The position numbers and the translations under genes were made by a program. From Nemertoderma westbladi (Eukaryota; Animalia; Xenacoelomorpha), in the NCBI GenBank assembly GCA_032718475.1, contig JAUCBJ010006956.1, forward strand, positions 62,001 through 126,000: DNA of 64,000 nt, given 5' to 3'. Below the pieces are notes generated by a model. It made no database searches. It saw only the letters and a program-made list of their open reading frames with translations, and had not been told where the DNA came from. Positions 9,501 through 37,687 of the stretch are shown here, piece by piece (the first letter of the stretch is position 1; each line of letters starts with the position of its first letter).

Positions 9501-12500
9501 TTATCCTGTCACTCACTCCTCACCTTCCGTTTCGGTTTGGTTTTTGTCCGAGTGTGCCTTATCCTGTCACTAACTCCTTACCTTCCGTTTCGGTTTGGTT
9601 TCTGTCCGAGTGTGCCCTATCCTGTCACTCACTCCTTACCTTCCGTTTCGGTTTGGTTTCTGTCCGAGTGTGCCTTATCCTGTCACTCACTCCTTACCTT
9701 CCGTTTCGGTTTGGTTTCTGTCCGAGTGTGCCTTATCCTGTCACTCACTCCTCACCTTCCGTTTCGGTTTGGTTTTTGTCCGAGTGTGCCTTATCCTGTC
9801 ACTAACTCCTTACCTTCCGTTTCGGTTTGGTTTCTGTCCGAGTGTGCCTTATCCTGTCACTCACTCCTTACCTTCCGTTTCGGTTTGGTTTCTGTCCGAG
9901 TGTGCCCTATCCTGTCACTCACTCCTTACCTTCCGTTTCGGTTTGGTTTCTGTCCGAGTGTGCCTTATCCTGTCACTCACTCCTTACCTTCCGTTTCGGT
10001 TTGGTTTCTGTCCGAGTGTGCCTTATCCTGTCACTCACTCCTTACCTTCCGTTTCGGTTTGGTTTCTGTCCGAGTGTGCCTTATCCTGTCACTCACTCCT
10101 TACCTTCCGTTTCGGTTTCTGTCCGAGTGTGCCATATCCTGTCACTCACTCCTTACCTTCCGTTTCGGTTTGGTTTCTGTCCGAGTGTGCCTTATCCTGT
10201 CACTCACTCCTTACCTTCCGTTTCGGTTTGGTTTCTGTCCGAGTGTGCCTTATCCTGTCACTCACTCCTTACCTTCCGTTTCGGTTTGGTTTCTGTCCGA
10301 GTGTGCCTTATCCTGTCACTCACTCCTTACCTTCCGTTTCGGTTTGGTTTCTGTCCGAGTGTGCCTTATCCTGTCACTCACTCCTTACCTTCCGTTTCGG
10401 TTTGGTTTCTGTCCGAGTGTGCCTTATCCTGTCACTCACTCCTTACCTTCCGTTTCGGTTTGGTTTCTGTCCGAGTGTGCCTTATCCTGTCACTCACTCC
10501 TTACCTTCCGTTTCGGTTTGGTTTCTGTCCGAGTGTGACTTATCCTGTCACTCACTCCTTACCTTCCGTTTCGGTTTGGTTTCTGTCCGAGTGTGCCTTA
10601 TCCTGTCACTCACTCCTTACCTTCCGTTTCGGTTTGGTTTCTGTCCAAGTGTGCCTTATCCTGTCACTCACTCCTTACCTTCCGTTTCGGTTTGGTTTCT
10701 GTCCGAGTGTGCCTTATCCTGTCACTCATTCCTTACCTTCCGTTTCGGTTTGGTTTCTGTCCGAGTGTGCCTTATCCTGGCACTCACTCCTTACCTTCCG
10801 TTTCGGTTTGGTTTCTGTCCGAGTGTGCCTTATCCTGGCACTCACTCCTTACCTTCCGTTTCGGTTTGGTTTCTGTCCGAGTGTGCCTTATCCTGTCACT
10901 CACTCCTTACCTTCCGTTTCGGTTTGGTTTCTGTCCGAGTGTGCCTTATCCTGTCACTCACTCCTTACCTTCCGTTTCGGTTTGGTTTTTGTCCGAGTGT
11001 GCATTCCCCTTCCACTCCCTCCACTGCGTTTTCTCGCATGGCCTTTCCCCTTTCCATCCTTATCGGTATCATCATCATCTTCGTCACGTTTCCGTAAAAG
11101 TTCAATAACCTCGTAGCGAAACGCCGAAATATCCTGAATAAAAGAAACGAAAGACGAACAAATTAACGTAATACGGGAAAACTTATTGGTTAATCAAATC
11201 GTTATTATCAAAAAATCCAGATTACGTAATATTAATTGCGAAAATTATTTCGTTAATTACAGCTAATACGCTACAATTATATAAAGTGCTAGTTTAAACG
11301 ATGTGAAGAAAATATAATTATTACACCGGTAAAAAGTATGCAATATTTTGTAAAATTTGAAGATATTATGACATCGATAAATTATATTATTACTTTCATC
11401 TCCATAGTCCAGCCCTTGAGCATGATTGGATTTAACGGTCAGGATAAATAAATGTATTAATATTATTTTGAGTACCTCAACACAGTCACTATAGTAACGG
11501 TTCTTCTACATAAATAACCTGTTTAATCTCATTGAGGTCGTCCTCTGTAACTGGTTTAATATCAGCACTCCGCTTCATGCTAGCTATGTAACGCTTCACT
11601 AAGTTACGGATCACTTCCTGTTAGTCGGGTTATTGTAAGAGAAATAAAGGGTTAATTATTGAATTTATAAGGGGATGAGATTGGTTAGTAAGGTAGTAAA
11701 GTGTTAATTGTAAAGGTCATTATGGTTAATAATTAAACCTCTATTTTGGGTACAAGTTAGTTATTATGTTAGATTATTTTATTAAGTGTTAATCGAAATA
11801 TTAGGTGGTTTCAATTAATCAGAAATAAATAATAAAACTTCCTCCAATGCTAGGTGCTATGGAAGTAGAAAGTGACAACTTGGAGTGAATTAAACTCATT
11901 TTTCCCGAACCTGTTTTATCTCGTTTAAATCGTCCTCTGTTACGGGATGAATATCGGCGTTTCGTTTTACCGAGATTATGTAACGCTTCACAATGTTGCT
12001 CATTACATCCTTGTTGTAATTAATTAGGTCATTAAATAAATAAAAATTGAATATTAATACGCAAAAATAATGCTATACGTAATGGCATTAAGTGATAACA
12101 AAAGTAATGTAATAATTATAACTATAGCGAATATTTATCTCTACTATACAATAGGTCCGTACCTGGTACTTTCTATCCGAATCTGCTAATTTCGTGGCGA
12201 GTTTCGTAATATTCCTTAGTCGATCTCCTTTCATTCCACCCGGAACCATGCGGAGGGCTACCCATTTACCGAAGTAGAAGAACGATTTGGGACTGGGGAT
12301 GATGTTAAATGGGGGTGGTAAGGTGGCCCCGTCGTCAAAGTAACTCATCCACAGACGAGAGCGAGCGAACTTCCATTCCACATCCGCGTGATCCTAAACA
12401 ACAACCTTATAATGACTTCCCCGTACACTGTACAGTAACTCTACCACGCTACAAAGTACAATAACTCCTCCAAGCTATACTCTACAGTGACTCTACCTTG

Positions 12501-15500: not shown

Positions 15501-18500
15501 ACCTTGCTACAAAGTGCAATAACTCCTCCAAGCTATACTCTACAGTAACTCTACCTTGCTACAAAGTACAATAACTCCTCCAAGCTATACTTTACTGTAA
15601 CTCTACCTTGCTACAAAGTAAAATAACTCCTCCAAGCTGTACTCTACAGTAACTCTACCTTGCTACAAAGTACAATAACTCCTCCAAGCTATACTTTACT
15701 GTAACTCTACCTTGCTACAAAGTACAATAACTCCTCCAAGCTATACTCTACAGTAACTCTACCTTGCTACAAAGTACAATAACTCATCCAAGCTATACTT
15801 TACTGTAACTCTACCTTGCTACAAAGTACAATAACTCATCCAAGCTATACTTTACTGTAACTCTACCTTGCTACAAAGTACAATAACTCCTCCAAGCTAT
15901 ACTCTACAGTGACTCTACCTTGCTACAAAGTACAATAACTCCTCCAAGCTATACTCTACAGTAACTCTACCTTGCTACAAAGTACAATAACTCCTCCAAG
16001 CTATCCTCTACAGTAACTCTACCTTGCTACAAAGTACAATAACTCATCCAAGTTATACTCTACAATAACTCTACCTTGCTACACAGTACAATAACTCCTC
16101 CAAGTTATACTCTAAGGTAACTCTACCTTGCTACAAAGTACAATAACTCATCCAAGCTATACTTTACTGTAAATCTACCTTGCTACAAAGTACAATAACT
16201 CCTCCAAGCTATACTCTACAGTAACCCTACCTTGCTACAAAGTGCAATAACTCCTCCAAGCTATACTCTACAGTAACTCTACCTTGCTACAAAGTACAAA
16301 AACTCCTCCAAGCTATATTTTACTGTAACTCTACCTTGCTACAAAGTACAATAACTCCTCCAAGCTATACTCTACAGTGACTCTACCTTGCTACAAAGTA
16401 CAATAACTCTTCCAAGCTATACTTTACTGTAACTCTACCTTGCTACAAAGTACAATAACTCCTCCAAGCTATACTCTACAGTAACTCTACCTTGCTACAA
16501 AGTACAATAACTCCTCCAAGCTATACTCTACAGTAACTCTACCTTGCTACAAAGTACAATAACTCCTCCAAGCTATACTTTACTGTAACTCTACCTTGCT
16601 ACAAAGTGCAATAACTCCTCCAAGCTATACTCTACAGTAACTCTACCTTGCTACAAAGTACAATAACTCCTCCAAGCTATACTTTACTGTAACTCTACCT
16701 TGCTACTAAGTACAATAACTCCTCCAAGCTATACTCTACAGTGACTCTACCTTGCTACAAAGTACAATAACTCTTCCAAGCTATACTTTACTGTAACTCT
16801 ACCTTGCTACAAAGTACAATAACTCCTCCAAGCTATACTCTACAGTAACTCTACCTTGCTACAAAGTACAATAACTCCTCCAAGCTATACTCTACAGTAA
16901 CTCTACCTTGCTACAAAGTACAATAACTCCTCCAAGCTATACTTTACTGTAACTCTACCTTGCTACAAAGTACAATAACTCCTCCAAGCTATCTAAACTA
17001 TACCGGGTACATGCCGTATTGGTTTGATTACCAATTATGTTGACACATTTCTTAATAGATTCCGTAAAGCTATTCTATGAGCAGGCTGCCGGGAAATAAA
17101 GCCGCTTGCTAGTACAATTATTTATCTTCCCATGGGATAAAGTCTAATATACAATACATACATAAAAATAATATTCCTAAAATACACTTTAAGAATTACT
17201 AAAATAATAACAATATTAATTATAAGTGTTTGCCACCCGGAATTTCAATACTAACATTAATCAAAACAACAACAGAAAGGGAGTTTAGGTCGTATGCCTA
17301 ATACTTACCATAAAGCATAATAGCTTACATTGTAAATAACATTAACTGAGCAACATATAATATGTAAACAACTAAATCTGCGAACAATAACATTTACCGC
17401 AAAATTAATTTCGATTCTGTTGAGAAGGCAAAAGAAATGTTTAAAAAAACACCCAACCATCATAATGTAATTACTTATTATTAGATATCTACCGATACAA
17501 TTAATTTATATTTATTAAATAAACAAACGTTTACAATTTTGCCACTTACCGATATATAAAAATATTTATACTACCGTGACGTAATACACCAACATACCAG
17601 GATATTTTGGTAAGAATTACTCATCATTGCAATAAGCATGTTGAGTAATACAATGATGGAGAATATATGGTAGGAGGCGTACATAGCACCCCCGAGGATC
17701 TCGTTGAAGTAGTGAGATTTGTAGTTTAATAGCTCCGCCTCGTCTTTGACGGAGAAGAACCTTATGACGTGGATGGAAACCAGTCCGTAGAGAGTCCAGT
17801 AGAGAGACCAGATAGTGCCCGGGAGACTGGAAGACAGACGGGGTATTAGAAAGATGTTGCAATCTGAGTTCGAACTATCTATAACCACATCCACGGAAGA
17901 AGTCAGGTTGAAGGGTGTTAGTTGGTGGAGAGATGAACGGAGGGTAGAACATCGTCAAAATGTCATCGGAGTTAGTTAGTATGTTAGTTATGTATTAATG
18001 GTAAATGGCAATGATTGTTATTGCAAACGATGGGTAAAATACTACCAGGCCTATATGAATAATTATGGTAAAATTGTGACGAAATATATTATTTAGGGCA
18101 AATGACAGAAACGATAAGATGCAACACAAGCAACATATATTATCGCATCTACAAAATAAGAAAGCACTCTACCGGCTACAAAATAAGCAAGCAATCTATC
18201 GGTTACAAAATAAGCAAGCAATCTACCGGCTACAAAATAAGCAAGCAATCTACCGGCTACAAAATAAAATATTGCAGTAAAATATTGTCCGCTGGGATAA
18301 AGGGCTTCACTTTACCACACAATAATCATCACTTCCTATTGGTTAAAATGTTCAAAACTTACTAACTGATAGAGCCTGTTGAATTGTACAAAAAAGTAAA
18401 AGCTGACAAAAATCGACTTATGAACTTATGATACTTAATCTACGATAAGTGCCTCAGGGAAGCCAATTAGCACATTTTACCTAATTAAGAATTTAAGAAC

Positions 18501-21500
18501 CGTTACCTTTTACCCGAAGTTTCACCCGCTAGCTGTAATACTGATGAACTTCCTTAGGTTGATTACTTCCCAGTCAGAACTCACCCCTATGTATCTGATA
18601 CCAATATATTTGGATAATTAGATGGTAGCAACCCTTAGAACGTTTTTGTGACTAACGATTTTATTGTTTTATAAATTTGTTCGGTTTCTTTCCTTTTGGG
18701 ATGACAGGTTCAACAATTTCGGAGGATATCGGTGCTCTACACATAGCAGCCACATCTAGAAATCGGCATACATGAAGAACTAACGATCAGTAACAAGAGA
18801 GAGTTCACAGCGGATTTTGACTCCAGTCACTTGCAAAAATACAATATTAAATACAAAATTAATTATCCCTTGCCCGGCCACTAAAAACCAGAACTGGGAG
18901 AGTCAATAAAAATGTATCTCTCTGCACAGGGGGAAATCGACGCAAATAACAGCTGATTACTCTATAAAATAAAAATATAACATGTTCTAGTGACTTTAGT
19001 TTATTGTTTTGGTTAGAATAACGCGACACAGTAACCTGCTTGGTGATTTAATATTGACACGAGATATTAATTTGCCGAGATTGAATTGAATGAGCCGCCC
19101 CCCCCCCCGCCCTTGGCTAAAAAAACAAATGACTGGAACCAACTGCATCGATGATATTCACCCAGAACTAACCAAAATATTTTCGTACGACAAATTCATC
19201 ATAGCAATGAGAGTGTTGAGTAGAACGACCACTGCCACTATATGGTATATGGCGAACATTCCGCCGCCCACGTACTCCGTGAACGAGTGTTTAGTCGACG
19301 AAAACTGGGCATCGGAAGTCGCTTCATCGATATTTTTCATGCCAATGTTGTGTAAGTCGGTTAGACCCATAGTTGCCCAATACAGGGACCATATAGACTC
19401 TGGTACACTGTGTAGAGTTAATACATACAGAGGGAAACAAGTAGCGTGCGTGTTAGTTAACGGTGTAACGGCGTTGTATTGTTAATTATAATCAATTTAT
19501 GTACCAGGAATTGAATTGGGAATTATTAGTTGTTAGTGAAGGGAAAAAATTATAGATGGTTAGTTTCATAAATAAATACTTAATATAGGAGTAAATTTTT
19601 ACAAATCGATGTCCTAAAAAAACTTCTGATTTGTTTGGCTTTTGTTAATGTTTAACGAATTGCATACGCAATTACATTACAACTACTTTGCCGAACTTAT
19701 AAAGTTTCAACGGATATAATATGTTTAACATTAATAAAACTTAATGCTAATGTACCGATTCAATTTTATTAAAAGTTATAATTTACATTACAACTACTTT
19801 GCCGAACTTATAAAGTTTCAACGGATATAATATGTTTAACATTAATAAAACTTAATGCTAATGTACCGATTCAATTTTATTAAAAGTTATAATTTACATT
19901 ACAACTACTTTGCCGAACTTATAAAGTTTCAACGGATATAATATGTTTAACATTAATAAAACTTAGTGCCAATGTACCGACTCAATTTTATTAAAAGTTA
20001 TAATTTTAGGTAATTCAATTGTAACCATTTACATAAAATGAATTAATTATCTTAACGTATCGTATAAGTAACATATATACTCAGTAAGATACTCTACTCA
20101 CGTTTCAAATATTCTGTTTTGTTCAATGCACGTAACCCCGCTACAAGTGACGTCATCTCCTGGGTTTGGATCTTCCTTCTCCACATATTCGGCAAAATAA
20201 AGCTGGTTCATCCCGCACGCGAAAGATAACAGAACCAAAAGAAATATGCACATAAACTTCATAATATCCTACAATTAAAAAAGTAGAAATGCAATTATTA
20301 AACATGATATGAAGCAAAATTGTAAAACACTGACTAATTCAATCACCAATTCTCGAAATAGTAAAACAAATGTATTCAACTTACCCAAAGATGAATCAAA
20401 CACAAACAAATCTAAACAAGTTACCTCTATAGTCACCCCGAGTTACCTGTACCAAATATTCTTCATTATTCTTGTTCTGAACTTAAAATTAACATTTCTG
20501 AACCAAAAATACTCAACTTTCCACTACCAAACATACTCAACTAACTTGTGCAAACAAACTCAACTTTCCACTACCAAACAAACTCAACTTGCATGTACCA
20601 AACATACTCAAAACTCAACTTGCCTGTACCAAACATACTCAAAACACAACTTGCCTGTACCAAACATACTCAACTTGCCTGTACCAAAAATTCTCAACAT
20701 TCCACTATTACTACCAAACAAACTCAACTTGCCCCTACCAAACATACTCAACTTGCCTGTACCAAAAATTCTCAACTTTCCACTACCAAACAAACTCAAC
20801 TTGCCTGTACCAAAAATACTCAGCTTTCCACTATCAAACAAACTCAACTTGCCTCTACCAAACAAACTCAACTTGCCACTACCAAACATACTCAACTTGC
20901 CTGTAACAAACATACTAAACTTGCCTGTACCAAACAAACTCAACGTGCCTGTACCCAACATACTCAACTTGCCTGTACCAAATATACTCAACTTGCCTGT
21001 ACCCAAAATACTCAATGTGCCACTACCAAACATACTCAACTTGCCCGTACCAAACATACTAAACTTGACTGTACCAAACAAACTCAACTTGCATGTATCA
21101 AACATACTAAACTTTCCTGTACTAAACATACTCAACTTGCCTGTACTAAACATACTCAACTTGCCTGTACCAAAAATACTCAATGTGCCACTACCAAACA
21201 TACTCAACTTGCCTGTACCAAACATACTCAACTTGCCACTACCAAATATACTCAACTTGCCTGTACCAAACATACTCAACTTGCCACTACCAAACATACT
21301 CAACTTGCGACTACCAAACATACTAAACTTGACTAAACATACTCAACTTGCCACTACCAAATATATTCAACTTGCCTCTACCAAACATACTCAACTTGCC
21401 ACTACCAAACATACTCAACTTGCCTGTACTAAACATACTCAACTTGCCTGTACCAAAAATACTCAATGTGCCACTACCAAACATACTCAACTTGCCTGTA

Positions 21501-24500
21501 CCAAACATACTCAACTTGCCACTACCAAACATACTCAACTTGCCACTACCAAACATACTCAACTTGCCTGTACCAAACATGCTCAACTTGCCACTACCAA
21601 ACATACTCAACTTGCATGTACCAAACATACTCAACTTGCCACTACCAAATATACTCAACTTGCCTGTACCAAACATACTCAACTTGCCACTACCAAACAT
21701 ACTCAACTTGCGACTTCCAAACATACTCAACTTGCCTGTACCAAACATACTAAACTTGCCTGTACCAAACATACTAAACTTGCCTAAACATACTAAACTT
21801 GCCTGTACCAAACATACTCAACTTGCCACTACCAAACATACTCAACTTGCCTGTACCAAACATACTAAATTTGCCACTACCAAATATACTCAACTTGTCT
21901 GTACCAAACATACTCAATTTGCCACTACCAAACATACTCAACTTGCGACTACCAAACATACTCAACTTGCCTGTACCAAACATACTAAACTTGACTGTAC
22001 CAAACATACTAAATTTGCCTGTACCAAACATACTAAACCTGCCTGTCCAAATATATTCAACTTGCCTGTACCAAACATACTCAACTTGCCACTACCAAAC
22101 ATACTCAACTTGCCTGTACCAAACATACTCAACTTGCCACTACCAAACATACTCAACTTGCCTGTACCAAACATACTCAACTTGCCATTACCAAACATAC
22201 GCAACTTGCCACTACCAAACATACTCAACTTGCCTGTACCAAACATACTCAACTTGCCATTACCAAACATACTCAACTTGCCACTACCAAACATACTCAA
22301 CTTGCCTGTACCAAACATACTCAACTTGCCTGTACCAAACATGCTCAACTTGCCACTACCAAACATACTCAACTTGCCTGTACCAAACATACTCAACTTG
22401 CCACTACCAAACATACTCAACTTGCCTGTACTAAACATACTCAACTTGCCACTACCAAACATACTCAACTTGCCACTACCAAACATACTCAACTTGCCAC
22501 TACCAAACATACTCAACTTGCCTGTACCAAACATACTCAACTTGCCACTACCAAACATACTCAACTTGGCACTACCAAACATACTCAACTTGCCTGTACC
22601 AAACATACTAAACTTGCCTGTACCAAACATACTAAACCTACTAAACCTGCCTGTCCAAATATATACAACTTGCCTGTACCAAACATACTCAACTTGCCAC
22701 TACCAAACATACTCAACGTGCCACTACCAAACATACTTAACTTGCCACTACCAAACATACTCAACTTGCCACTACCAAACATACTGAACTTGCCACTACC
22801 AAACATACTCAACTTGCCACTACCAAACATACTCAACTTGGCACTACCAAACATACTCAACTTGCCTGTACCAAACATACTAAACTTGCCTGTACCAAAC
22901 ATACTAAACCTGCCTGTCCAAATATATACAACTTGCCTGTACCAAACATACTCAACTTGACACTACCAAACATACTCAACGTGCCACTACCAAACATACT
23001 TAACTTGCCACTACCAAACATACTAAACTTGCCACTACCAAACATACTGAACTTGCCACTACCAAACATACTCAACTTGCCACTACCAAACATACTCAAC
23101 TTGCCACTACCAAACATACTCAACTTGCCACTACCAAACATACTCAACTTGCCACTACCAAACATACTCAACTTGCCTGTACCAAACATACTCAACTTGC
23201 CACTACCAAACATACTCAACTTGGCACTACCAAACATACTCAACTTGCCACTACCAAACATACTCAACTTGCCTGTACCAAACATACTCAACTTACCACT
23301 ACCAAACATACTCAACTTGCCTGTACCAAACATACTAAACTTGCCTGTCCAAATATATTCAACTTGCCACTACCAAACATACTCAACTTGCCTGTACCAA
23401 ACAAACTCAACTTGCCTGTACCAAACAAACTCAACTTGCCTGTACCAAACATACTCAACTTGCCTGTACTAAACATACTGAACTTGCCTGTACCAAAAAT
23501 ACTCAATGTGCCACTACCAAACATACTCAACTTGCCTGTACCAAATATACTAAACTTGCCTGTACCAAATATACTAAACCTGCCTGTCCAATTATATTCA
23601 ACTTGCCTGTACCAAACATACTCAACTTGCCACTACCAAACATACTCAACTTGCCTGTACCAAACATACTCAACTTGCAACTACCAAAGATACTCAACTT
23701 GCCACTACCAAACTTACTCAACTTGCCTGTACCAAACATACTCAACTTGCCACTACCAAACATACTCAACTTGCCTGTACCAAACATACTCAACTTGCCA
23801 CTACCAAAGATACTCAACTTGCCACTACCAAACTTACTCAACTTGCCATTATCAAACATACTCAACTTGCCACTACCAAACATACTCAACTTGCCTGTAC
23901 CAAACATACTCAACTTGCCATTACCAAACATACTCAACTTGCCACTACCAAACATACTCAACTTTCCTGTACCAAACATACTCAACTTGCCACTACTAAA
24001 CATACTCAACTTGCCACTACCAAACATACTCAACTTGCCTGTACCAAACATACTAAACTTGCCTGTACCAAACATACTAAACCTGCCTGTCCAAATATAT
24101 TCAACTTACCTGTACCAAACATACTCAACTTGCCATTACCAAACATACTCAACTTGCCACTACCAAACATACTTAACTTGCCACTACCAAACATACTCAA
24201 CTTGCCACTACCAAACATACTCAACTTGCCTGTACCAAACATACTAAACTTGCCTGTCCAAATATAATCAACTTGCCTGTACCAAACATACTCAACTTTC
24301 CACTACCAAACATACTCAACTTGCCACTGCACTACCAAACATACTCAACTTACCTGTACCAAACATACTATACTTGTCTGTACCAAACATACTAAACCTG
24401 CCTGTCCAAATATATTCAACTTGCCTGCACCAAACACCCCAACTCCCTATGAACCTCACCACCGGGTATCTGCCGTCACCCCAACTTCCTATGAACCTCA

Positions 24501-27500: not shown

Positions 27501-30500
27501 TCCCTATGAACCTCACCACCACCGGGTATCTGCCGTCACACCAACTCCCTATGAACCTCACCACCACCGGGTATCTGCCGTCACCCCAACTCCCTATGAA
27601 CCTCACCACCACCGGGTATCTACCGTCACCCCAACTCCCTATGAACCTCACCACCACCGGGTATCTGCCGTCACACCAACTCCATATGAACCTCACCACC
27701 ACCGGGTATCTGCCGTCACCCCAACTCCCTATGAACCTCACCACCACCGGGTATCTGTCGTCACCCCAACTCCATATGAACCTCACCATCGGGTATCTGC
27801 CGTCACCCCAACTCCCTATGAACCTCACCACCACCGGGTATCTGCCGTCACCCCAACTCCCTATAAACCTCACCACCACCGGGTATCTGCCGTCACACCA
27901 ACTCCATATGAACCTCACCACCACCGGGTATCTGCCGTCACCCCAACTCCCTATGAACCTCACCACCACCGGGTATCTGTCGTCACCCCAACTCCATATG
28001 AACCTCACCACCGGGTATCTGCCGTCACACCAACTCCCTATGAACCTCACCACCACCGGGTATCTGCCGTCACCCCAACTCCCTATGAACCTCACCACCA
28101 CCGGGTATCTGCCGTCACCCCAACTCCCTATGAACCTCACCACCGGGTATCTGCCGTCACCCCAACTCCCTATGAACCTCACCACCACCGGGTATCTGCC
28201 GTCACCCCAACTCCCTATGAACCTCACCACCACCGGGTATCTACCGTCACCCCAACTCCCTATGAACCTCACCACCGGGTATCTGTCGTCACCCCAACTC
28301 CATATGAACATCACCACCGGGTATCTGCCGTCACACCAACTCCCTATGAACCTCACCACCACCGGGTATCTGCCGTCACCCCAACTCCATATGAACCTCA
28401 CCACCACCGGGTATCTGCCGTCACCCCAACTCCCTATGAACCTCACCACCACCGGGTATCTGCCGTCACCCCAACTCCCTATGAACCTCACCACCACCGG
28501 GTATCTGCCGTCACCCCAACTCCATATGAACCTCACCACCACCGGGTATCTGCCGTCACCCCAACTCCCTATGAACCTCACCACCACCGGGTATCTGCCG
28601 TCACCCCAACTCCCTATGAACCTCACCACCGGGTATCTGCCGTCACCCCAACTCCCTATGAATCTCACCACCACCGGGTATCTGCCGTCACCCCAACTCC
28701 CTATGAACCTCACCACCACCGGGTATCTGCCGTCACCCCAACTCCCTATGAACCTCACCACCGGGTATCTGCCGTCACACCAACTCCCTATGAACCTCAC
28801 CACCACCGGGTATCTGCCGTCACCCCAACTCCATATGAACCTCACCACCACCGGGTATCTGCCGTCAAACCAACTCCCTATAAACCTCACCACACCACCG
28901 GGTATCTGCCGTCACCCCAACTCCCTATGAACCTCACCACCACCGGGTATCTGCCGTCACACCAACTCCCTATGAACCTCACCACCACCGGGTATCTGCC
29001 GTCACCCCAACTCCATATGAACCTCACCACCACCGGGTATCTGCCGTCAAACCAACTCCCTATAAACCTCACCACACCACCGGGTATCTGCCGTCACCCC
29101 AACTCCCTATGAACCTCACCACCACCGGGTATCTGCCGTCACCCCAACTCCCTATGAACCTCACCACCACCGGGTATCTGCCGTCAAACCAACTCCCTAT
29201 AAACCTCACCACACCACCGGGTATCTGCCGTCACCCCAACTCCCTATGAACCTCACCACCGGGTATCTGCCGTCAAACCAACTCCCTATAAACCTCACCA
29301 CACCACCGGGTATCTGCCGTCACCCCAACTCCCTATGAACCTCACCACCACCGGGTATCTGCCGTCACCCCAACTCCCTATGAACCTCACCACCACCGGG
29401 TATCTGCCGTCAAACCAACTCCCTATAAACCTCACCACACCACCGGGTATCTGCCGTCACCCCAACTCCCTATGAACCTCACCACCACCGGGTATCTGCC
29501 GTCAAACCAACTCCCTATAAACCTCACCACACCACCGGGTATCTGCCGTCACCCCAACTCCCTATGAACCTCACCACCGGGTATCTGCCGTCACACCAAC
29601 TCCCTATGAACCTCACCACCACCGGGTATCTGCCGTCACCCCAACTCCCTATGAACCTCACCACCACCGGGTATCTGCCGTCACCCCAACTCCCTATGAA
29701 CCTCACCACCACCGGGTATCTGCCGTCACCCCAACTCCATATGAACCTCACCACCACCGGGTATCTGCCGTCACCCCAACTCACCTGAACCATCCGGCCC
29801 AATGAAATCTGCAGTGGACCGAGATGTGCGCTGGCAATAAAAAGGAACAGAAGTCGCAGCATACTGAATATATTGGCCACGGCAAATAAACCGTCAGCGA
29901 TAATCAGAGGGTCGTCGCCGGACCAATACTTCCGCGGGAAATCGGGGTCGTGCCAACCCTACAAACGGTAAACCAAAACAGAAAGTAAATCGGGGTCGTG
30001 CCAACCCTACAAACAGTAAACCAAAACAGAAAGTAGATCGGGGTCGTGCCAACCTTATAAACGGTAAAGAAAAACAGAAGTAAATCGGGGTCGTGCCAAC
30101 CCTACAAACGGTAAACCAAAACAGAAAGTAAATCGGGGTCGTGCCAACCCTACAAACGGTAAACCAAAACAGAAAGTAAATCGGGGTCGTGCCAACCCTA
30201 CAAACGGTAAACCAAAACAGAAAGTAAATCGGGGTCGTGCCAACCCTACAAACGGTAAACCAAAACAGAAAGTAAATCGGGGTCGTGCCAACCCTACAAA
30301 CGGTAAACCAAAACAGAAAGTAAATCGGGGTCGTGCCAACCCTACAAACGGTAAACCAAAACAGAAAGTAAATCGGGGTCGTGCCAACCCTACAAACGGT
30401 AAACAAAAACAGAAAGTTAATCGGGGTCGTGCCAACCCTACAAACGGTAAACCAAAACAGAAAGTAAATCGGGGTCGTGCCAACCCTACAAACGGTAAAC

Positions 30501-33500
30501 AAAAACAGAAAGTAAATCGGGGTCGTGCCAACCCTACAAACGGTAAACAAAAACAGAAAGTTAATCGGGGTCGTGCCAACCCTACAAACGGTAAACAAAA
30601 ACAGAAAGTAAATCGGGGTCGTGCCAACCCTACAAACGGTAAACCAAAACAGAAAGTAAATCGGGGTCGTGCCAACCCTACAAACGGTAAACAAAAACAG
30701 AAAGTTAATCGGGGTCGTGCCAACCCTACAAACGGTAAACCAAAACAGAAAGTAAATCGGGGTCGTGCCAACCCTACAAACGGTAAACCAAAACAGAAAG
30801 TAAATCGGGGTCGTGCCAACCCTACAAACGGTAAACCAAAACAGAAAGTAAATCGGGGTCGTTCCAACCCTACAAACGGTAAACCAAAACAGAAAGTAAA
30901 TCGGGGTCGTGCCAACCCTACAAACGGTAAACCAAAACAGAAAGTAAATCGGGGTCGTGCCAACCCTACAAACGGTAAACCAAAACAGAAAGTAAATCGG
31001 GGTCGTGCCAACCCTACAAACGGTAAACCAAAACAGAAAGTAAATCGGGGTCGTGCCAACCCTACAAACGGTAAACAAAAACAGAAAGTAAATCGGGGTC
31101 GTGCCAACCCTACAAACGGTAAACAAAAACAGAAAGTAAATCGGGGTCGTGCCAACCCTACAAACGGTAAACAAAAACAGAAAGTAAATCGGGGTCGTGC
31201 CAACCCTACAAACGGTAAACAAAAACAGAAAGTAAATCGGGGTCGTGCCAACCCTACAAACGGTAAACAAAAACAGAAAGTAAATCGGGGTCGTGCCAAC
31301 CCTACAAACGGTAAACCAAAACAGAAAGTAAATCGGGGTCGTGCCAACCCTACAAACGGTAAACCAAAACAGAAAGTAAACAGTAAACATATAGATAGTT
31401 ACGGTAAACAAAGAGTAACTGTACCCTTGAAAAAGGTGAAATAAATGTAAGAAATTAATCAGGGTGGGTTAATAAAATAGCAAGAGACTTATCATGATGT
31501 ACATACATACATATGTACATATGAGTATAGTTTCTTCGTTTCTCGAAGGTCACGCGCGAAAATTGAACTTAGAAAATTTCTAGACTTGTTACGTTTAAAT
31601 ACGAATCTACAGATTTACAGACACAACGATCAATATAGTTGTACCCGTATTCTAAGCTTGCATACTGCCGTGGCTCGCCCCACATCAGCCACACCACACC
31701 TAATGCACCGGTTGGATCAGCCATGTAAATTCACAATTAATTTCCATTAAGAGATGTGCCCTTTATTAATCTTATAAGTATCTATATAGACCAATGTCTT
31801 TTAGCAGACCTTTCAGTAATGTAAATGGCTGACCGCCACTATTTCCTCTCGCAGCCGGTTCATAGATAAATAACACGCAGAGTCAGTTATATGATCAGTA
31901 ACACCGGAAGTCCAATTATGTAAATACAATTAATACATATTCCGCGGGTTACCGACGGTGAACCTACAAGTATGTCTCTACAATTCGGAAGGTTAAACCT
32001 TCCAATGTTTTGCCATATTCGGTACCGTTCCAAACAAAGTTTATTGCGTAGAATTGACACAACTTGCAATTCTATTTTACGTGAGATCTCGCGTATTTGT
32101 AGTATTAACTCAATATCACGTATTCTTTCTTAGGTATGATTTCAGTGACCTACTTACTCATACTCTGTGCTTGATTTGTTGTGTGCTTGTTTTACTCGTT
32201 TTTATGGGCTAAGGCCTGGATTAAAGGGAATAATAATAATAATAACATAAGAGTAGTGCCATGGTACTTACCTTGATGTAAACAATAGACCTTAGTGCTA
32301 TGGTGGCCAAATATAAGGAGTTCATGAAGAAATCTAAGAGATTCCACCAATCGGAAGTGTATTCTACAAATCCACTCTCCCAGACTTCTTTGATTTCCGA
32401 CCAAATCTTTCCTACAATATGTCACATAAACGGATAATAGAATACAGTAAATGGTATTATACAGCATATTGATAGTATATGTAACCTACAGCTACACGGG
32501 TAATACCATATTACTAATTAATAATTATTTACCATACGTGTTTAATATGGTAAACCTTTGAAATTATACAGGCTATATACTAAAACACATAACTTACAAT
32601 AGTATGCTCACATTTCCAAAAAATGTGTCTTTTTCTATATTATTCGAACTTCGCATTCTATTTATATGATGTGCACATACTGCATTTTCTTCTTCCACTT
32701 ACTTCATTCACGGTATAAATACCCTGTTTACTATATTTATTTATTTACTATTTATTTTTAGTCCAAATCCAAGTGAGGAAATCGAGCCATGCATCAAACT
32801 TAGGAATACTCAAATAATCACTAGAAGGAGACAAAGGTTAATCAGATTATTGGAGCGGGTTGCTTCTAGTGTTGGTCTTTTTGTTAAATCTTATAAAACT
32901 AAAATTTTGACAGTTTTAACTTCGACAGTTCGCAGGAAATGACTCATGATATGTTATGGGGCATATACACCAATGATGGTGTGCTTCGTGCTTGATCATG
33001 TTGATGACTTCTGCTGCTTGCGATCATGGATCCGGAAGTCCGGAAGTTCGACCTTCGAATGCGAATAGTCTGTCCAAGATTAAGTCACAAAATAGAACGG
33101 GTGAGGCGATGATAGTCTATGTGTACATTATATAAAATACTGTAGGATAGGTTTATTATGCCTAGGATATATTTTATAAACATTAAAAGTTTAACATGAA
33201 TAGAAAATAAAATGACACTCATTCATTCACACGAAATATTAACTAATTATGGAATCCATATAACTGGAACTTTAAACAATATTGGTTGCAGTGTGGGGTG
33301 TGGGAGGGGCGCGGAAGAAGAAAAATATCTATTCTAAACATATTTACTTAGATGTTAGTGCAAAGTTAAGTTAAAATTTAGTGTAAAGAAATAGAACAAA
33401 AGTGACAAGCAGTCACCGAAAGTAAACAGTTGCCAATTAAGTGCATAAAATCGAGTTCTCAGGTGAACATTTCAAAGGCATTCAAATGAACACGGAACAG

Positions 33501-36500
33501 AAACTAAGTGAACACGCAGTTCCGAGTGTCTAGGTTTCTTACCAATTACAAAACTCATAACAAAAAACTCCACGTAGGAAGGGAGAGTTTCGGCGTCGTG
33601 TTTGTCTCGATGCCCGAAGGTGGAGATAGTCGGGTCACTGGCCAATCCGAGACAGACGAGGAAAATAATGAACGCCGCATTGTGATTAACAAACTTAACA
33701 AAGGGACTCCGAAAAAACTCGCCCACCTAAATAGGAAACATTAAATTAATCTAGTGACGTTGTAACATAAGGATATAGTCTAGTAGACTTACCTATGACG
33801 AAAGATAACATAAACCATTCGAGAGGGTGTGGTCTGACGTAGCCGTGGTAACTTTGTCCGAAGGTGGATGATGTAGAGCTGCCAGTCACCAATACACACG
33901 TCAAAAAGATAAAGAAGCAGGCGTTGTGATTGAGAAATTTTACGAAGGGGCCGGTGAGAAAAACTCCTAACTGAAAGACATTGGGATTATGTTATTGTAT
34001 ATGTAGGACTAACTACAAGGACGCCTCATGGGTTTTAACAATGTCATGATCCTCGTGTGTATCTCCGTTCTCGTTTATTTTATATCTTTGCACTCGTTTA
34101 CTTTATATCTTTGCACTCGTTTACTTTATATCTTTGCACTCGTTTACTTGGCATCTTTGCACTCGTTTACTTTATATCTTTACACTCGTTTACTTTATAT
34201 AATTGCACTCGTTTACTTTATATCTTTGCACTCGTTTACGTTATATCTTTGCACTCGTTTACTTTATATCTTTGCACTCGTTTACTTGGCATCTTTGCAC
34301 TCGTTTACTTTATATCTTTACACTCGTTTACTTTATATAATTGCACTCGTTTACTTTATATCTTTACACTCGTTTTCTTTATATAATTGCACTCGTTTAC
34401 TATATATTTTTGTACTCGTTAAACATACCACTGGTGCTTACGCACTCGGTCGGCACACTTTAAGGTGCTATTTTACAGTTGTACAAAAGTATGTAAATAG
34501 TATAACATCACATTATATACTACATTTAGTTACCATGGTTTTCGGGGCTGCAAGGTACATAATCGCCGTAAAGGGGAGGGAACATAAACAAGCGAAAAGA
34601 ATTCCGAGTTTCATTGGTCCGTTTCCTCGTCTCCACCCGGGCATCCCCTCGTACCAAATACTGGCCAACAATTGCTGACAATTTGGATGAGCCACAAACT
34701 AAAAACATAACAGCAACGGATTAGATACATACAAATATTCAAATTAGATATTCTGGCGCCTAGAAGGATAATTGAGAAGTTATTAACAAATAAACACAGA
34801 CGTCTGGTTATTATCTTTGTTGACTTTATTAAACCCTTCGACTCATTCTCCCGACCATGTATAACATAATTGCAGCATTTGGGATTCCTAAGAAAATTAT
34901 AGCAGCTATCAGATCACTATACGATGGTTCCACCACATTTGTGTCTACTGCTGATGGTGACACAGATCCATTCGAAGTCTTATGAGGAATCCTTCAGGGT
35001 GACGCACTTGCACCATTCTTATTCTTAATTGTGGTTGATTATGTTCTACACATGTCCGTAGACCATCATAATAAACAAAACGTACCGCACGTTACGCAAA
35101 ACGTAACATAAGCTTAATGGATCAGATTGCTTCTAGTGTTGGTCTTTTTGTAAACTCCAAGAAGACCAAAATTATGACAGTCTTGACAGCCCTCCAGAAA
35201 TGTCTGATCGTAAGAGCATAATTTACAGGGATGACTTGCTTGAGCACGTGGATGACTTCTGCTACTTGGGATCATGGATCAGAAAGTCAGATGAAGAGAT
35301 TCGGATATGTAAGGGGAAGGCATGGGCTAGGCAGCGTTAGATAGTCTGTCCAGGATTTGGAAGTCGCATAGAATAAAACAGAATCTTAAGGTTCAATTAT
35401 TAAGGGCAGCAGTAGTACCAGTTCTCTTATGAGAGTCCATGCTGGGCTCTAACTGCAGAGGATACCAAATCTCTGGATGGCACTTTCACAAGCATGCTGG
35501 GCCAGGTTCATTGTATCAAGAACAATGAATACATCTCCAATCAGACACTATATACAACATTTGAGGTCCGCCTCCGCTTTGTAGGACATTTCTTTCGCCG
35601 CGAGGACCAGCCAGTGCATAATCTAGTGCTTTGGTGGCCTCATGAAGTGAATAAGCATGGTGGACATCACACGACTTTCTTGAGACACATCTTAAAGGAC
35701 ACTGGCCTAGAAGATGCGGATGATCTAACAAATATCATGGGTGATAGGGAATTGTGGTGGCGCATATTGTCGACAAACCGGCCGGACATTATTAATATAT
35801 ATGTAATGTATATAATGTATAGCTGCAATGCAGCATGCCGATATAGTTTAGTAGTAATTGCAGCTTTTTTCCAAGGATACTTCTTGATTACAAACAATAC
35901 AGTGTTACACACTAGTGGCGACATTCCTGGGTTTCCAATTAGGAAGCCCTGGTTCGATTCCTAGATGGGGTAGCACTGTTTGGGCACAGTGCTTTAAATG
36001 CTGCAGCCTAGCTCAACACATCCTTCATACTTTCATCCTTCAGTGCTCGATAAATGGGAATCAAGGCAACTTGGGAAATAGAGTGGAAGGGTTTACTGTG
36101 GAAGATCACCCGTGGTGGTGAACAGAGGCATTCCTAGGCTTAACGAGCCTAAAAGATTCTCCCATTAATTATAATAAAAATTATTAAATAAAATGCTAAA
36201 TGGAGTAGAATGATGAACAAGCTCTATTGATTTATATTAAACGTTTTACGTTTTTATAACCTAAAGATTTCAGGGTAGACCAAAGTTTTTTTTGAGGTGT
36301 CTCCTTTTAACTTATTTTATATATAAATCATAATAAGCTTTATTAACTTATCTTTGGACCAGGGTTCTAGACCTGCAGTAATTATTATAATCAGATAAAA
36401 CGCAAAAAGTTATTCCCTTTTTTCCCATGTAATACGTAATTTTATTCTTAAATTAGTACTTCTTTGTTGCTAAATTTTTTAATAAAAGAAAGAGCGATTA

Positions 36501-37687
36501 GTGTTACTAAATAAATTGAACTGCAGTAATTTAGTACTGCCGGTATATTGTTGCCATAGTTACTGTACAGTTGAAATTCCTTCACATTCACACTCTTCAA
36601 CTGCTGATGTAACAAAAAGTAACAATTTGAGAACAAAAATAATAATTCACATATTATGAACGTCAATGTTTCAACTAACATCTTTCTGTCGGTACTGAAT
36701 GGCGAGTTTAAGGCGACATAAGGCCATCTTTTTGTTTCCCTCCTGTTCCGATTGGTCCTCCTGGTCTTCGAGCTCAGACGGGTCGGTTGTCCGGTTCAAT
36801 AGAATTCGCAACTCCTTCGATCCCCGAGTTTGTCCCAATATGTCAACCGCAAACTTACTACACTGCGCCTCCAACTCTATATAATCGTTGCGAAATTCCG
36901 TTTCTATTTTACTGTAAATAAACAATTTCATTTTATACAATTTTAAACAATTTAAAGGTTTATAAGTTACCTATATACTGTATAAATACAGTAAATAATT
37001 CCGTTTCTAGGTTACCCACAGCAAATAATGAATTCAGTTTCTGTTTTTAACTCTATTTCGGTTTTCAAATTACCTATTGTGAATAAACAATTCAGTGTCT
37101 GTGTTGCTATCCGGGTTGGAAGTTCCAACCCGGAGGTCACCAGTTCGATCCCACCTGGACGTAATTGCAGACTTTGCAAAAGCTGTGCCCAACAAAAAGT
37201 TATAACTATTTCTTGTCTTACCTTAAGGTACGGAGTTCCCAACTCAACTCGAAGGCTGTTAAGACAGGATCGTCACTGGCGAGGCACATAAGGGAGGGAC
37301 AGGAGAGAGCGCGATAGGCATTGATACGGGTTCGGGAATGTCGCAATCCGTCGAACGTGGCACTGTGAACGCATTCGTAGCAACCGCACTAATAAATAAA
37401 TATATTATAAGCTGTTAGTAGAACTTCTTAATTATAAGATACGCAATAAATACTTATATATAAATGTATGTATAATAAGATCAATCGATAACTGGGTGTA
37501 TAAAACAATAATTACAATATAGTTATAGAATATAAGAAATGATTCACACCTTTACACTATGGGGTTTCACTATTGTGGCAGAACGTTGGATTAGAATTTT
37601 TACAATTTCGTAATTATTTTTATGGGCAGCGAGAATGATTGGCGTAATATCGGGAGTGAAGTCAGATTCCTTCTTGGCGCCCGGCAT
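4055..37687 (-). CDS. TRPC: TRPC-family cation channel (TRPC4/5/TRPgamma-like), multi-exon, 5' part (ANK1-3) not found in window
   Basis: Hand-spliced exons give ordered TRPC hallmarks: [13 protein letters not shown] (ANK4), H..C.C..C zinc site, [48 protein letters not shown] pore helix, LLNMLIAMM (S6), EWKFAR and [13 protein letters not shown] (TRP boxes), [18 protein letters not shown] (coiled coil). All junctions are GT-AG with compatible phases. Confidence 0.96.
4885..5130 (-). repeat. Coding 42-bp tandem repeat (14 aa, [14 protein letters not shown]), about 5-6 copies
   Basis: Repeated tttctttgctttatcatctaccttcactgctgtatcatctgc; visible in the ORF translation. Confidence 0.85.
6794..6914 (-). 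CDS. TRPC: TRPC exon (121 nt, [40 protein letters not shown])
   Basis: tacttctag acceptor and gtaatt donor; open frame; phase 0 in, phase 1 out, matching the terminal exon. Confidence 0.8.
7277..7291 (-). CDS. TRPC: Putative 15-nt TRPC microexon (QSIPS)
   Basis: ttttttatttctttttcag|CAATCAATTCCATCG|gtaagt: strong acceptor, consensus donor, frame-preserving. Confidence 0.6.
7555..8771. mobile_element. Non-autonomous DNA transposon (MITE-like) with about 25-bp TIRs and TA flanks
   Basis: Left end TGTAATTGGCACGTAACACTTTAAG, right end CTTAAAGTGTTACGTGCCGATTACA (one mismatch). TA at 7553-7554 and 8772-8773. No ORF. Confidence 0.75.
9198..11002. repeat. 58-bp minisatellite (about 31 copies) spanning a TRPC exon/intron donor junction
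   Basis: Minus-strand unit GCACACTCGGACAGAAACCAAACCGAAACGGAAG|GTAAGGAGTGAGTGACAGGATAAG = last 34 nt of exon 10969-11133 plus first 24 nt of the intron. Confidence 0.95.
10969..11133 (-). CDS. TRPC: TRPC exon (165 nt, [22 protein letters not shown]...KTKPKRK), end of coiled coil
   Basis: ttttattcag acceptor, AAG|gtaagg donor; DIS.FRYE is the conserved TRPC coiled-coil motif. Confidence 0.92.
11519..11617 (-). CDS. TRPC: TRPC coiled-coil exon, downstream copy ([33 protein letters not shown])
   Basis: 99 nt, cag acceptor and gt donor, phase 0/0; conserved RNLVKRY and TEDD.NEIKQ motifs. Confidence 0.9.
11911..12009 (-). CDS. TRPC: TRPC coiled-coil exon, upstream copy ([33 protein letters not shown])
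   Basis: 99 nt, aag acceptor and gt donor; same length and phase as 11519-11617 and paralogous to it. Confidence 0.8.
12163..12393 (-). CDS. TRPC: TRPC TRP-domain exon ([37 protein letters not shown]...KYQ)
   Basis: 231 nt; TRP box 1 EWKFAR and box 2 LPPPFN; gtttag acceptor, gtacgg donor. Confidence 0.97.
12430..16993. repeat. 52-bp minisatellite (about 87 copies; dimer of related 26-mers)
   Basis: Unit aactctaccttgctacaaagtacaat + aactcctccaagctatactctacagt; ends about 35 nt from the acceptor of the TRP-domain exon. Confidence 0.95.
17598..17826 (-). CDS. TRPC: TRPC pore-helix/filter/S6 exon, downstream copy ([21 protein letters not shown]...[25 protein letters not shown])
   Basis: 229 nt, tgtcttccag acceptor, gtatgt donor, phase 2 in and phase 0 out. 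Confidence 0.92.
18150..18270. repeat. 27-bp tandem repeat, about 4 copies
   Basis: accggctacaaaataagcaagcaatct repeated. Confidence 0.8.
19173..19407 (-). CDS. TRPC: TRPC pore-helix/filter/S6 exon, upstream copy ([21 protein letters not shown]...[25 protein letters not shown])
   Basis: 235 nt, ctctacacag acceptor, gttagt donor; phases identical to 17598-17826. Confidence 0.92.
19673..20005. repeat. 111-bp tandem repeat, 3 copies
   Basis: aactactttgccgaacttataaagtttcaacgg... recurs at about 19681, 19792 and 19903. Confidence 0.85.
20102..20268 (-). CDS. TRPC: TRPC S5 and turret exon ([25 protein letters not shown]...[16 protein letters not shown])
   Basis: 167 nt, phase 0 in and 2 out; the C.G..C pair corresponds to the TRPC4/5 extracellular CKGIRC disulfide. 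Confidence 0.95.
20440..24435. repeat. 24-bp minisatellite (about 165 copies)
   Basis: Unit actcaacttgcc(tg/ac)taccaaacat; degenerates toward 20440 and abuts the next array at about 24433. Confidence 0.95.
24433..29783. repeat. 42/45-bp minisatellite (about 120 copies) beginning at a TRPC donor site
   Basis: Unit ccccaactccctatgaacct(cac)2-3cgggtatctgccgtca; on the minus strand it starts inside the donor CAG|GTGAGTTGGGG. Confidence 0.95.
29785..29958 (-). CDS. TRPC: TRPC S3-S4 loop/S4/S4-S5 linker exon ([58 protein letters not shown])
   Basis: 174 nt, phase 0/0; conserved [12 protein letters not shown]. Confidence 0.96.
29940..31381. repeat. 48-bp minisatellite (about 30 copies) spanning a TRPC intron/exon acceptor junction
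   Basis: Minus-strand unit TACTTTCTGTTTTGGTTTACCGTTTGTAG|GGTTGGCACGACCCCGATT = polypyrimidine tract and AG plus the first 19 nt of exon 29785-29958. Confidence 0.95.
32272..32411 (-). CDS. TRPC: TRPC S2-S3 exon ([46 protein letters not shown])
   Basis: 140 nt, phase 1 in and 0 out; W.EIK..W and WWN.LDF.MNSLY motifs; gtaagt donor. Confidence 0.96.
32770..33100 (+). mobile_element. Degenerate RTE-clade LINE fragment
   Basis: Shares ttgcttctagtgttggtctttttgt and gatgacttctgct..ttg.gatcatggatc with the RT fragment at 35140-35290. Confidence 0.6.
33543..33726 (-). CDS. TRPC: TRPC S1 exon, downstream copy ([30 protein letters not shown]...[13 protein letters not shown])
   Basis: 184 nt, ttcctatttag acceptor, gtaaga donor, phase 0 in and 1 out; PFVKF motif. 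Confidence 0.92.
33793..33970 (-). CDS. TRPC: TRPC S1 exon, upstream copy ([30 protein letters not shown]...[13 protein letters not shown])
   Basis: 178 nt, tgtctttcag acceptor, gtaagt donor, same phases as 33543-33726; absent from the ORF track. Confidence 0.9.
34068..34420. repeat. 23-bp tandem repeat, about 15 copies
   Basis: ctcgtttactttatatctttgca repeated. Confidence 0.9.
34534..34698 (-). CDS. TRPC: TRPC pre-S1 exon ([24 protein letters not shown]...YLAAPKTM)
   Basis: 165 nt, phase 0/0; [11 protein letters not shown] motif. Confidence 0.96.
34740..35790 (+). mobile_element. Degenerate RTE-clade LINE reverse-transcriptase fragment
   Basis: Broken frames read [60 protein letters not shown]; contains stops, frameshifts and an internal deletion. 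Confidence 0.8.
35905..36150 (+). mobile_element. Possible degenerate tRNA-derived SINE
   Basis: B-box GGTTCGATTCC at about 35951, preceded by an A-box-like tagtggcg; no intact cloverleaf. Confidence 0.4.
36680..36911 (-). CDS. TRPC: TRPC linker-helix exon ([39 protein letters not shown]...[14 protein letters not shown])
   Basis: 232 nt, phase 2 in and 0 out; E.EF..DY and RLKLAI.Y.QK motifs. Confidence 0.95.
37222..37388 (-). CDS. TRPC: TRPC zinc-binding/TRP_2 exon ([55 protein letters not shown])
   Basis: 167 nt, phase 0 in and 2 out; gtaaga donor; absent from the ORF track. Confidence 0.96.
37550..37687 (-). CDS. TRPC: TRPC ankyrin-4 exon ([46 protein letters not shown])
   Basis: 138 nt; the strong ttcctttttcag acceptor indicates an internal exon. 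Confidence 0.95.

What the first reader, a model, noticed from the sequence alone, without database searches (positions are those of the whole stretch)
17598..19407. Swappable ion pore: alternative exons change the selectivity filter (GLTD vs GLVS) and the S6 gate
Seen: upstream copy [12 protein letters not shown]...[10 protein letters not shown]; downstream copy [12 protein letters not shown]...[10 protein letters not shown]; the outer loops are unrelated. Established: the Asp in Drosophila TRP GLVD (D621) sets Ca2+ selectivity, and the TRPC4/5 lower gate is I-x3-N-x3-Q in S6. Here it is I/N/E in one copy and I/S/Q in the other. Inference: splicing switches between a more Ca2+-selective and a less selective channel, similar to the TRP vs TRPL split but inside one gene.
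Basis: partly seen in the sequence, partly recalled or inferred. Interest (0 to 1): 0.85.

Follow-up and report, generated by a model that had tools for sequence, protein, structure and literature searches.

The report
Either-or pore exons in TRPC channel
An animal TRPC ion-channel gene carries two old, intact copies of the exon that builds its pore, likely used one at a time, and only one copy has the acidic residue that raises calcium flow in related channels, so splicing would likely tune how much calcium the channel lets in.

Summary
Observation confirmed. A TRPC4/5-like gene on the minus strand has two tandem pore-helix/filter/S6 exons: A (19407-19173) and B (17826-17598). Both have GT-AG ends and matching phases; either alone keeps the frame, both or neither gives an early stop. 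Silent sites are near saturation while the protein is conserved (pS 0.70, pN 0.37), so both were long kept under selection. D (A) and S (B) align without gaps to TRPC5 N584, where Asp doubles Ca2+ permeability (PMC7565274, passage). Gates are I/N/E and I/S/Q as reported, but I/S/Q is the commonest gate in relatives (38 of 75), not a sign of low selectivity. The same exon appears doubled in 10 of 149 database hits, with repeated origins; none of the 8 readable pairs swaps acid for neutral at the filter. No RNA or physiology evidence. This scan found such exons before in octopus. Verdict: likely either-or exons tuning Ca2+ permeability a few-fold; a full TRP/TRPL-sized switch is unproven.

The parts
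19173..19407 (-). Pore exon A: pore helix (SLYW), filter GLTD, 31-residue outer stretch, S6, gate I/N/E; 235 nt, phase 2 to 0
17598..17826 (-). Pore exon B: pore helix (SLYW), filter GLVS, 29-residue outer stretch, S6, gate I/S/Q; 229 nt, phase 2 to 0
17827..19172 (-). Intron between A and B, 1346 nt; no third copy, no significant docking-type pairing
20102..20268 (-). Constitutive S5 and turret exon upstream of the pair; phase-2 donor fits both A and B
12163..12393 (-). Constitutive TRP-box exon (EWKFAR) downstream of the pair; phase-0 acceptor
33793..33970 (-). Second duplicated pair, copy S1a (S1 helix and S1-S2 loop), 178 nt, phase 0 to 1
33543..33726 (-). Second duplicated pair, copy S1b, 184 nt, only 66 nt from S1a; both or neither gives a stop
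11911..12009 (-). Third duplicated pair, copy C1 (helix after the TRP domain), 99 nt, phase 0 to 0
11519..11617 (-). Third duplicated pair, copy C2, 99 nt; frame is kept with one, both or neither
37550..37687 (-). Constitutive exon, last ankyrin repeat region (most upstream exon found)
37222..37388 (-). Constitutive exon, Pfam TRP_2 (E 4.5e-23)
36680..36911 (-). Constitutive exon, linker helices
34534..34698 (-). Constitutive exon, pre-S1
32272..32411 (-). Constitutive exon, S2-S3
29785..29958 (-). Constitutive exon, S4 and S4-S5 linker
10969..11133 (-). Exon starting the C-terminal coiled coil (DISAFRYEV); 3' end inferred from the first donor of a 58-nt array

Best explanation
A and B are old tandem copies of the single TRPC exon for pore helix, filter, outer loop and S6, and they are likely spliced either-or, so that the gene would make two pore types, with the Asp copy (A) predicted to pass a few-fold more Ca2+ than the Ser copy (B). 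How: the S5 exon's phase-2 donor can join either acceptor and either phase-0 donor joins the TRP-box exon (shown on sequence); messages with both or neither carry an early stop and would be removed by nonsense-mediated decay (stop shown, decay inferred). In the tetramer four Asp side chains one turn above the Gly constriction would attract Ca2+; four Ser would not (inferred from TRPC5 N584 and fly TRP D621 mutants). The unrelated outer loops and A's unusual S6 end would also change block, modulation or gating, and mixed A/B tetramers would give intermediate channels (inferred). Two further duplicated pairs make eight open one-of-each isoforms. Odds: both exons used either-or about 0.85; A measurably more Ca2+-permeable, given that, about 0.7.
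For: Canonical splice sites and matching phases; all 8 one-of-each combinations open over 680-684 codons; A+B stops at B+207, neither stops at TRP-box exon +46. pS 0.70 against pN 0.37, bootstrap of the difference 0.18-0.48, 0 of 2000 at or below zero; 12 of 14 four-fold sites differ where the residue is kept; neutral decay of one copy to 0.8 or more changes per site gave 0 of 20000 stop-free copies with 36 identities at each distance. A and B score alike (83.2 and 84.8 bits) on a profile of 75 other pore segments. Gap-free register on TRPC5 G581-N584 (numbering PMC6656536). N584D 2-fold over wild type, 5.7-fold over N584G; fly Asp621 the main determinant (PMC7565274 passages). Precedent for either-or filter exons in NALCN (PMC3557258 abstract and section 6). 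The same exon appears doubled in 10 of 149 listed proteins.
Against: No transcript, read or protein record of this gene was obtained (searches gave no close relative), so use of each exon today is not shown; pairwise dN/dS cannot exclude recent silencing. No D-to-S mutant is reported in the passages read. D is the default residue (33 of 75) and sits in channels not all known to be Ca2+-selective, for example the TRP-gamma chain 9vqq (GLID); TRPC permeability ratios span 1 to 9 with non-Asp residues (PMC7116371 table). In 8 of 8 other doubled exons with both filters readable there is no acid/neutral swap, so the recurring duplication is usually about something else. B's gate is the commonest type. 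No RNA pairing that would enforce exclusion stood clear of shuffles.
Confidence: 0.6

Rival explanations
1. Either-or exons, both used, but the selected difference lies in the outer loop and S6 (gating, block or potentiation by cations or protons, lipid sensitivity, partner choice); Ca2+ permeability differs little.
For: Loops share 3 of 20 residues; A has an N-L-S-Y-E S6 end seen in none of 75 relatives as N/E. Other doubled pore exons keep the filter class (0 of 8 swap). In TRPM3 the spliced pore loop sets pharmacology (PMC9290681 abstract); TRPC5 N584A affects Gd3+ potentiation.
Against: The D/S change falls on the one residue tied by mutation to Ca2+ permeability in TRPC5, TRPC3 and fly TRP.
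Confidence: 0.25
2. One copy is now silent or only rarely used; the pair is a remnant of a once-working choice.
For: No expression data. B has the longer branch (1.1 against 0.5).
Against: Both copies are stop-free with in-frame length difference, intact splice sites and equal profile scores despite near-saturated silent sites.
Confidence: 0.12
3. Assembly artefact (two alleles or two paralogues merged) or a recent local duplication.
For: The gene's introns are full of long minisatellites, which are hard to assemble; no reads or second assembly were available.
Against: 55% base identity with saturated silent sites is far beyond alleles; flanking introns share no homology; 8 other exons are single-copy and the order is collinear.
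Confidence: 0.03

Closest known systems
NALCN alternative exons 15a/15b and 31a/31b (Senatore et al. 2013, PMC3557258; abstract and section 6 read)
   Same: Tandem, mutually exclusive copies of a pore exon in invertebrates that swap a key filter residue; arose more than once.
   Different: Four-domain channel, E versus K in one domain; here a homotetrameric TRPC, D versus S in all four subunits or in mixtures, with the whole S6 gate swapped too. That paper could not record the currents.
TRPM3 alpha1/alpha2 pore-loop splice variants (PMC9290681 abstract; PMC4435931 passage)
   Same: Splicing in a TRP pore changes divalent permeability and pharmacology.
   Different: A length change of the pore loop, not a choice between two duplicated exons; other TRP subfamily.
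Limulus TRP mRNA variants (Bandyopadhyay and Payne 2004, pmid 15525336; only the reference entry was seen; text not held)
   Different: Could not be checked whether its variants swap this exon or the filter residue. If they do, the arrangement has been in print since 2004.
Drosophila TRP versus TRPL (Asp621; review passage PMC7565274; the primary paper was not held)
   Same: The same filter position separates a Ca2+-favouring from a less selective channel (TRPL's Gly there is recalled, not seen in a call).
   Different: Two genes there, two exons here; the gate does not follow the filter here; orthology to TRP or TRPL was not tested.
Vertebrate TRPC4/TRPC5 and amphioxus TRPC4
   Same: About 50% identity over about 655 residues; one clade with the window gene (SH-aLRT 97, quick tree); same exon ends for the pore exon in the genomic ORF hits.
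   Different: Single pore exon in the hits seen; outer loop 11-13 residues shorter; LFW rather than LYW.

Membership tests
TRPC channels | TRP_2 domain, six-helix core, EWKFAR TRP box in order | tested here: met
   collinear exons cover TRPC5 residues 137-762; TRP_2 E 4.5e-23; EWKFAR present
TRPC channels | Four N-terminal ankyrin repeats | tested here: inconclusive
   Only the last repeat region was found; exons for TRPC5 residues 1-136 were not found in the window
TRPC channels | L-F/Y-W pore helix, Gly constriction, I-x3-N/S-x3-Q/E gate | tested here: met
   LYW, G and the gate triad in both copies
TRPC1/4/5 group (with fly TRP, TRPL, TRP-gamma) | Groups with TRPC4/5 in a tree | tested here: met
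   SH-aLRT 97 on a quick tree of 21 rows; no full-length fly or mollusc sequence was in the set, so finer orthology is open
Mutually exclusive exons from tandem duplication | Adjacent homologous exons of similar length, same phases, canonical splice sites | tested here: met
Mutually exclusive exons from tandem duplication | Both or neither not tolerated | tested here: met
   early stop in both cases; for the C1/C2 pair this is not met, the frame is kept
Mutually exclusive exons from tandem duplication | Transcripts contain exactly one copy and both forms occur | not testable with these tools
   no run was listed and no protein record of this gene was found
Splice-switched ion selectivity (NALCN, TRPM3 type) | Swapped residue is the mapped selectivity position | tested here: met
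   aligns with TRPC5 N584
Splice-switched ion selectivity (NALCN, TRPM3 type) | Isoforms differ in measured permeability | not testable with these tools
   needs electrophysiology
Docking-site/selector RNA pairing | Competing intronic pairings stronger than chance and conserved | tested here: inconclusive
   best duplex -29.8 kcal/mol against -27.4 +/- 1.5 in 12 shuffles; other two intron pairs weaker than shuffles; no relatives for covariation

The most novel reading that the evidence does not exclude
One TRPC gene encodes both a Ca2+-selective and a non-selective channel, the TRP/TRPL division inside a single gene, chosen by cell type through an Asp/Ser exon swap and combined with two more exon choices into eight channels. 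It is the only acid/neutral filter swap among nine doubled pore exons compared here, in an exon that animals have duplicated again and again in TRPC and TRPN-like genes.
Probability: 0.25. Interest if true: 0.75.

Novelty: new variant of a known kind. Interest (0 to 1): 0.52.

Why it matters
Ca2+ permeability decides whether a TRPC channel mainly depolarises a cell or also delivers a Ca2+ signal. A natural pair of pores on one protein background is a clean test of how much the N584/D621 position, the outer loop and the S6 end each contribute. It would extend splice-switched selectivity from NALCN and TRPM3 to TRPC, and the repeated duplication of this one exon points to a general route for tuning TRP pores that I did not find described in the searched library, with the unread Limulus paper as a possible earlier report.

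Tried and rejected
No whole genome is held. No RNA holder listed for 17300-20400; this is no evidence either way. Homologue searches found no close relative: exon A against longer proteins 0 of 43 candidates; TRP-box exon best hits vertebrate TRPC5; A+B profile best identity 49% to A and no hit under E 1e-30 among 1.84 billion representatives. So the animal group and cross-species conservation of A and B stay open. ESM Atlas gave only generic Ion_trans clusters for A and did not answer for B. An AlphaFold model of exon A alone (pLDDT 71, pTM 0.45) ran one helix through the filter because S5 and the other subunits are missing; not used. Docking-type RNA pairing: not clear of shuffles. A third, decayed pore copy: none. 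A single origin of all doubled TRPC copies, or of all first copies, was rejected (p-AU 7e-32 and 9e-96); A+B as sisters was neither recovered nor rejected (p-AU 0.16) on 66 columns; exon conversion could mimic sister pairs. The idea that B's Ser gate marks low selectivity was rejected. A recalled lead on Brugia trp-2 splice forms found no support in PMC7387335 or PMC8841521 (term searches). The crayfish TRP survey PMC13483504 (passages) reports no pore-exon choice. Primary papers on D621, N584 and Limulus variants were not held. No supplements were read; those of the crayfish and NALCN papers could bear on novelty.
Full report
Observation. Six-frame translation shows both peptides on the minus strand. 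Exon A runs 19407-19173 (235 nt) and exon B 17826-17598 (229 nt), 1346 nt apart, each between AG and GT, entering in phase 2 and leaving in phase 0. Each matches TRPC4/5 structures at E about 1e-9.

The gene. tblastn with three vertebrate TRPC5 proteins gives collinear exons from 37687 to 11133 covering TRPC5 residues 137-762. The joined core is about 50% identical to TRPC4/5 and groups with them and amphioxus TRPC4 (SH-aLRT 97, quick tree of 21 rows, no full-length fly or mollusc channel in the set). The first ankyrin exons were not found. No close relative turned up in four protein searches, no genome is held, and the animal group is undetermined. Three positions, not one, are doubled: S1 (33970-33793, 33726-33543), pore/S6 (A, B) and the helix after the TRP domain (12009-11911, 11617-11519); the other 8 exons tested are single.

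Either-or logic. All 8 one-of-each combinations are open. A plus B stops at B+207; skipping both stops 46 nt into the TRP-box exon; the S1 pair behaves alike; the C-terminal pair keeps frame with one, both or neither. These stops lie well upstream of later junctions, so nonsense-mediated decay would remove such messages (inference). No intronic pairing stood clear of shuffles: the best of three intron pairs gave -29.8 against -27.4 +/- 1.5 kcal/mol in 12 shuffles, the other two were weaker than shuffles.

Both copies were kept by selection. A and B share 36 of 76 residues; pS 0.70, pN 0.37 (corrected about 2.0 and 0.5); bootstrap of the difference 0.18-0.48; 12 of 14 four-fold sites differ. 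S6 has pN 0.24, the outer loop 0.63. Neutral decay of one copy gave 0 of 20000 stop-free copies with 36 identities at each distance of 0.8 or more (0.4% at 0.5). The other pairs show the same pattern (pS 0.84/pN 0.36; pS 0.70/pN 0.18). On a profile of 75 other segments A scores 83.2 and B 84.8 bits; the training rows score higher by construction (median 94). This shows long-term function of both, not present-day use; no sequencing run was listed.

Filter. G-L-T-D and G-L-V-S align gap-free to TRPC5 G-L-L-N. PMC6656536 (passages) places the constriction at G581, N584 above it, and the gate at I621/N625/Q629. PMC7565274 (passages) reports N584D 2-fold more Ca2+-permeable than wild type and 5.7-fold more than N584G, E630 of TRPC3 as a similar position, and Asp621 as the main determinant in fly TRP; the primary papers were not held. 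So the swap is at the right residue and the direction A above B follows. Size is open: among 75 dereplicated relatives (from 263 proteins, 247 segments) the position is D in 33, E in 9, S in 8, N in 4; zebrafish TRPC4a has S, TRP-gamma has D, and mammalian TRPCs span ratios of 1 to 9 (PMC7116371 table). A is the default type and B the neutralised one. A's outer stretch has 5 acidic and 2 basic residues, B's 4 and 3, a small difference in the same direction.

Gate. I/N/E and I/S/Q are in register. But I/S/Q is the commonest gate (38 of 75), and D filter with S gate the commonest pairing (28 of 75); N with E occurs in none of 75. The gate therefore does not support 'B is the non-selective form'; A's S6 end is the odd one and may alter gating or rectification (inference).

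Recurrence. Of 149 proteins newly listed by the A+B profile search, 11 had two S6 motifs by pattern; 3 were dropped as simple repeats (P0121, P0159, P0178) and 2 added by eye (P0177, P0179), giving 10 of 149 with tandem pore/S6 copies. In 9 of 10 the first copy is followed by Val, as a read-through GT intron would be; their DNA was not seen. Such ORFs survive only when the intron is in frame and stop-free, so the true number is probably higher. Copies within P0122, P0123, P0124 and P0125 are sisters (99/95, 99/94, 99/93, 98/87), a single origin is rejected, and A+B as sisters is not rejected (p-AU 0.16). Conversion between neighbours could mimic this, and only 66 columns were used. In the 8 with both filters readable the residue is S/S, E/D, D/D, D/D, T/T, P/S, T/T and Q/S: no acid/neutral swap. 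The window pair (47% identity) is older or faster than six of those eight (64-86%; the other two 38-40%). After these tests the scan's notes showed three earlier reports of two to three such exons in octopus TRPC (unchecked notes); they agree with my reading and gave the Limulus lead.

Comparison. It works like NALCN exons 15a/b and 31a/b (PMC3557258 abstract and section 6) and, in outcome, like TRPM3 pore splicing (PMC9290681 abstract; PMC4435931 passage). Five searches of the open library for TRPC or NompC pore-exon choice found no description, but the library lacks most subscription papers, and the 2004 Limulus paper on TRP mRNA variants was seen only as a reference entry. It may already describe this exon.

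Verdict. Real and non-trivial: an old either-or pore/S6 exon pair in a TRPC4/5-like gene with three such pairs. Shown: structure, phases, selection, register. Inferred: exclusive use (about 0.85), a few-fold Ca2+ difference (about 0.6 overall), a full TRP/TRPL-like switch (about 0.25). New variant of a known kind; interest 0.52.

Noticed in passing
window 33970-33793 and 33726-33543 (-): Second duplicated exon pair (S1 and S1-S2 loop), 28 of 59 residues identical, pS 0.84, pN 0.36; only 66 nt apart, which may block joint splicing sterically; both or neither gives a stop.
   Followed up: yes
window 12009-11911 and 11617-11519 (-): Third duplicated pair (33-residue helix after the TRP domain), 25 of 33 identical, pS 0.70, pN 0.18; phase 0/0, so exclusion is not enforced by frame; donors are weak (GTTCGG, GTTATT).
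   Followed up: yes
proteins P0122, P0123, P0124, P0125, P0148, P0170, P0179: Database ORFs with two tandem TRPC pore/S6 copies; spacers as short as about 11-24 residues begin with Val, as a read-through GT intron would. DNA not seen. P0170 is from the spider Caerostris; the rest are unnamed.
   Followed up: partly
proteins P0129, P0132, P0177: The same doubling in a distinct clade that I recall as NompC/TRPN-like (NCBI names P0132 TRP-gamma of the bagworm Eumeta); a doubled pore exon in a mechanosensory channel would merit its own look; one paper search found nothing on it.
   Followed up: partly
protein P0261: Unnamed ORF that runs across both exon borders without introns and shares A's unusual MMNLSY end; nearest row to A in both trees (90/83, 90/88; long branch).
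   Followed up: partly
window 9197-11002, 24435-29782, 29939-31380: Minisatellites that start at exon edges and copy the splice site: 58-nt units repeat a donor 28 times, 45-nt units follow the S4 donor, 48-nt units overlap the S4 acceptor. Other arrays: 52-nt x87, 24-nt x163, 38-nt x119.
   Followed up: no
window 6628-4055 (-): 857-codon open frame, K/D/E-rich with 14-residue repeats and no Pfam match; probably the gene's last exon, link to the upstream exons not established.
   Followed up: partly
window 51954-46984, 60942-57856, 61880-60927 (-): Retroelements upstream: a 1657-codon frame with DUF1759, and a LINE-like pair (endonuclease plus reverse transcriptase, and a coiled-coil frame). 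The first ankyrin exons were not found in the window.
   Followed up: partly
window 55110-54431 and 43900-43221: Identical translated frames at two places about 11.2 kb apart, bracketing the DUF1759 element: probably its long terminal repeats or a local duplication.
   Followed up: no
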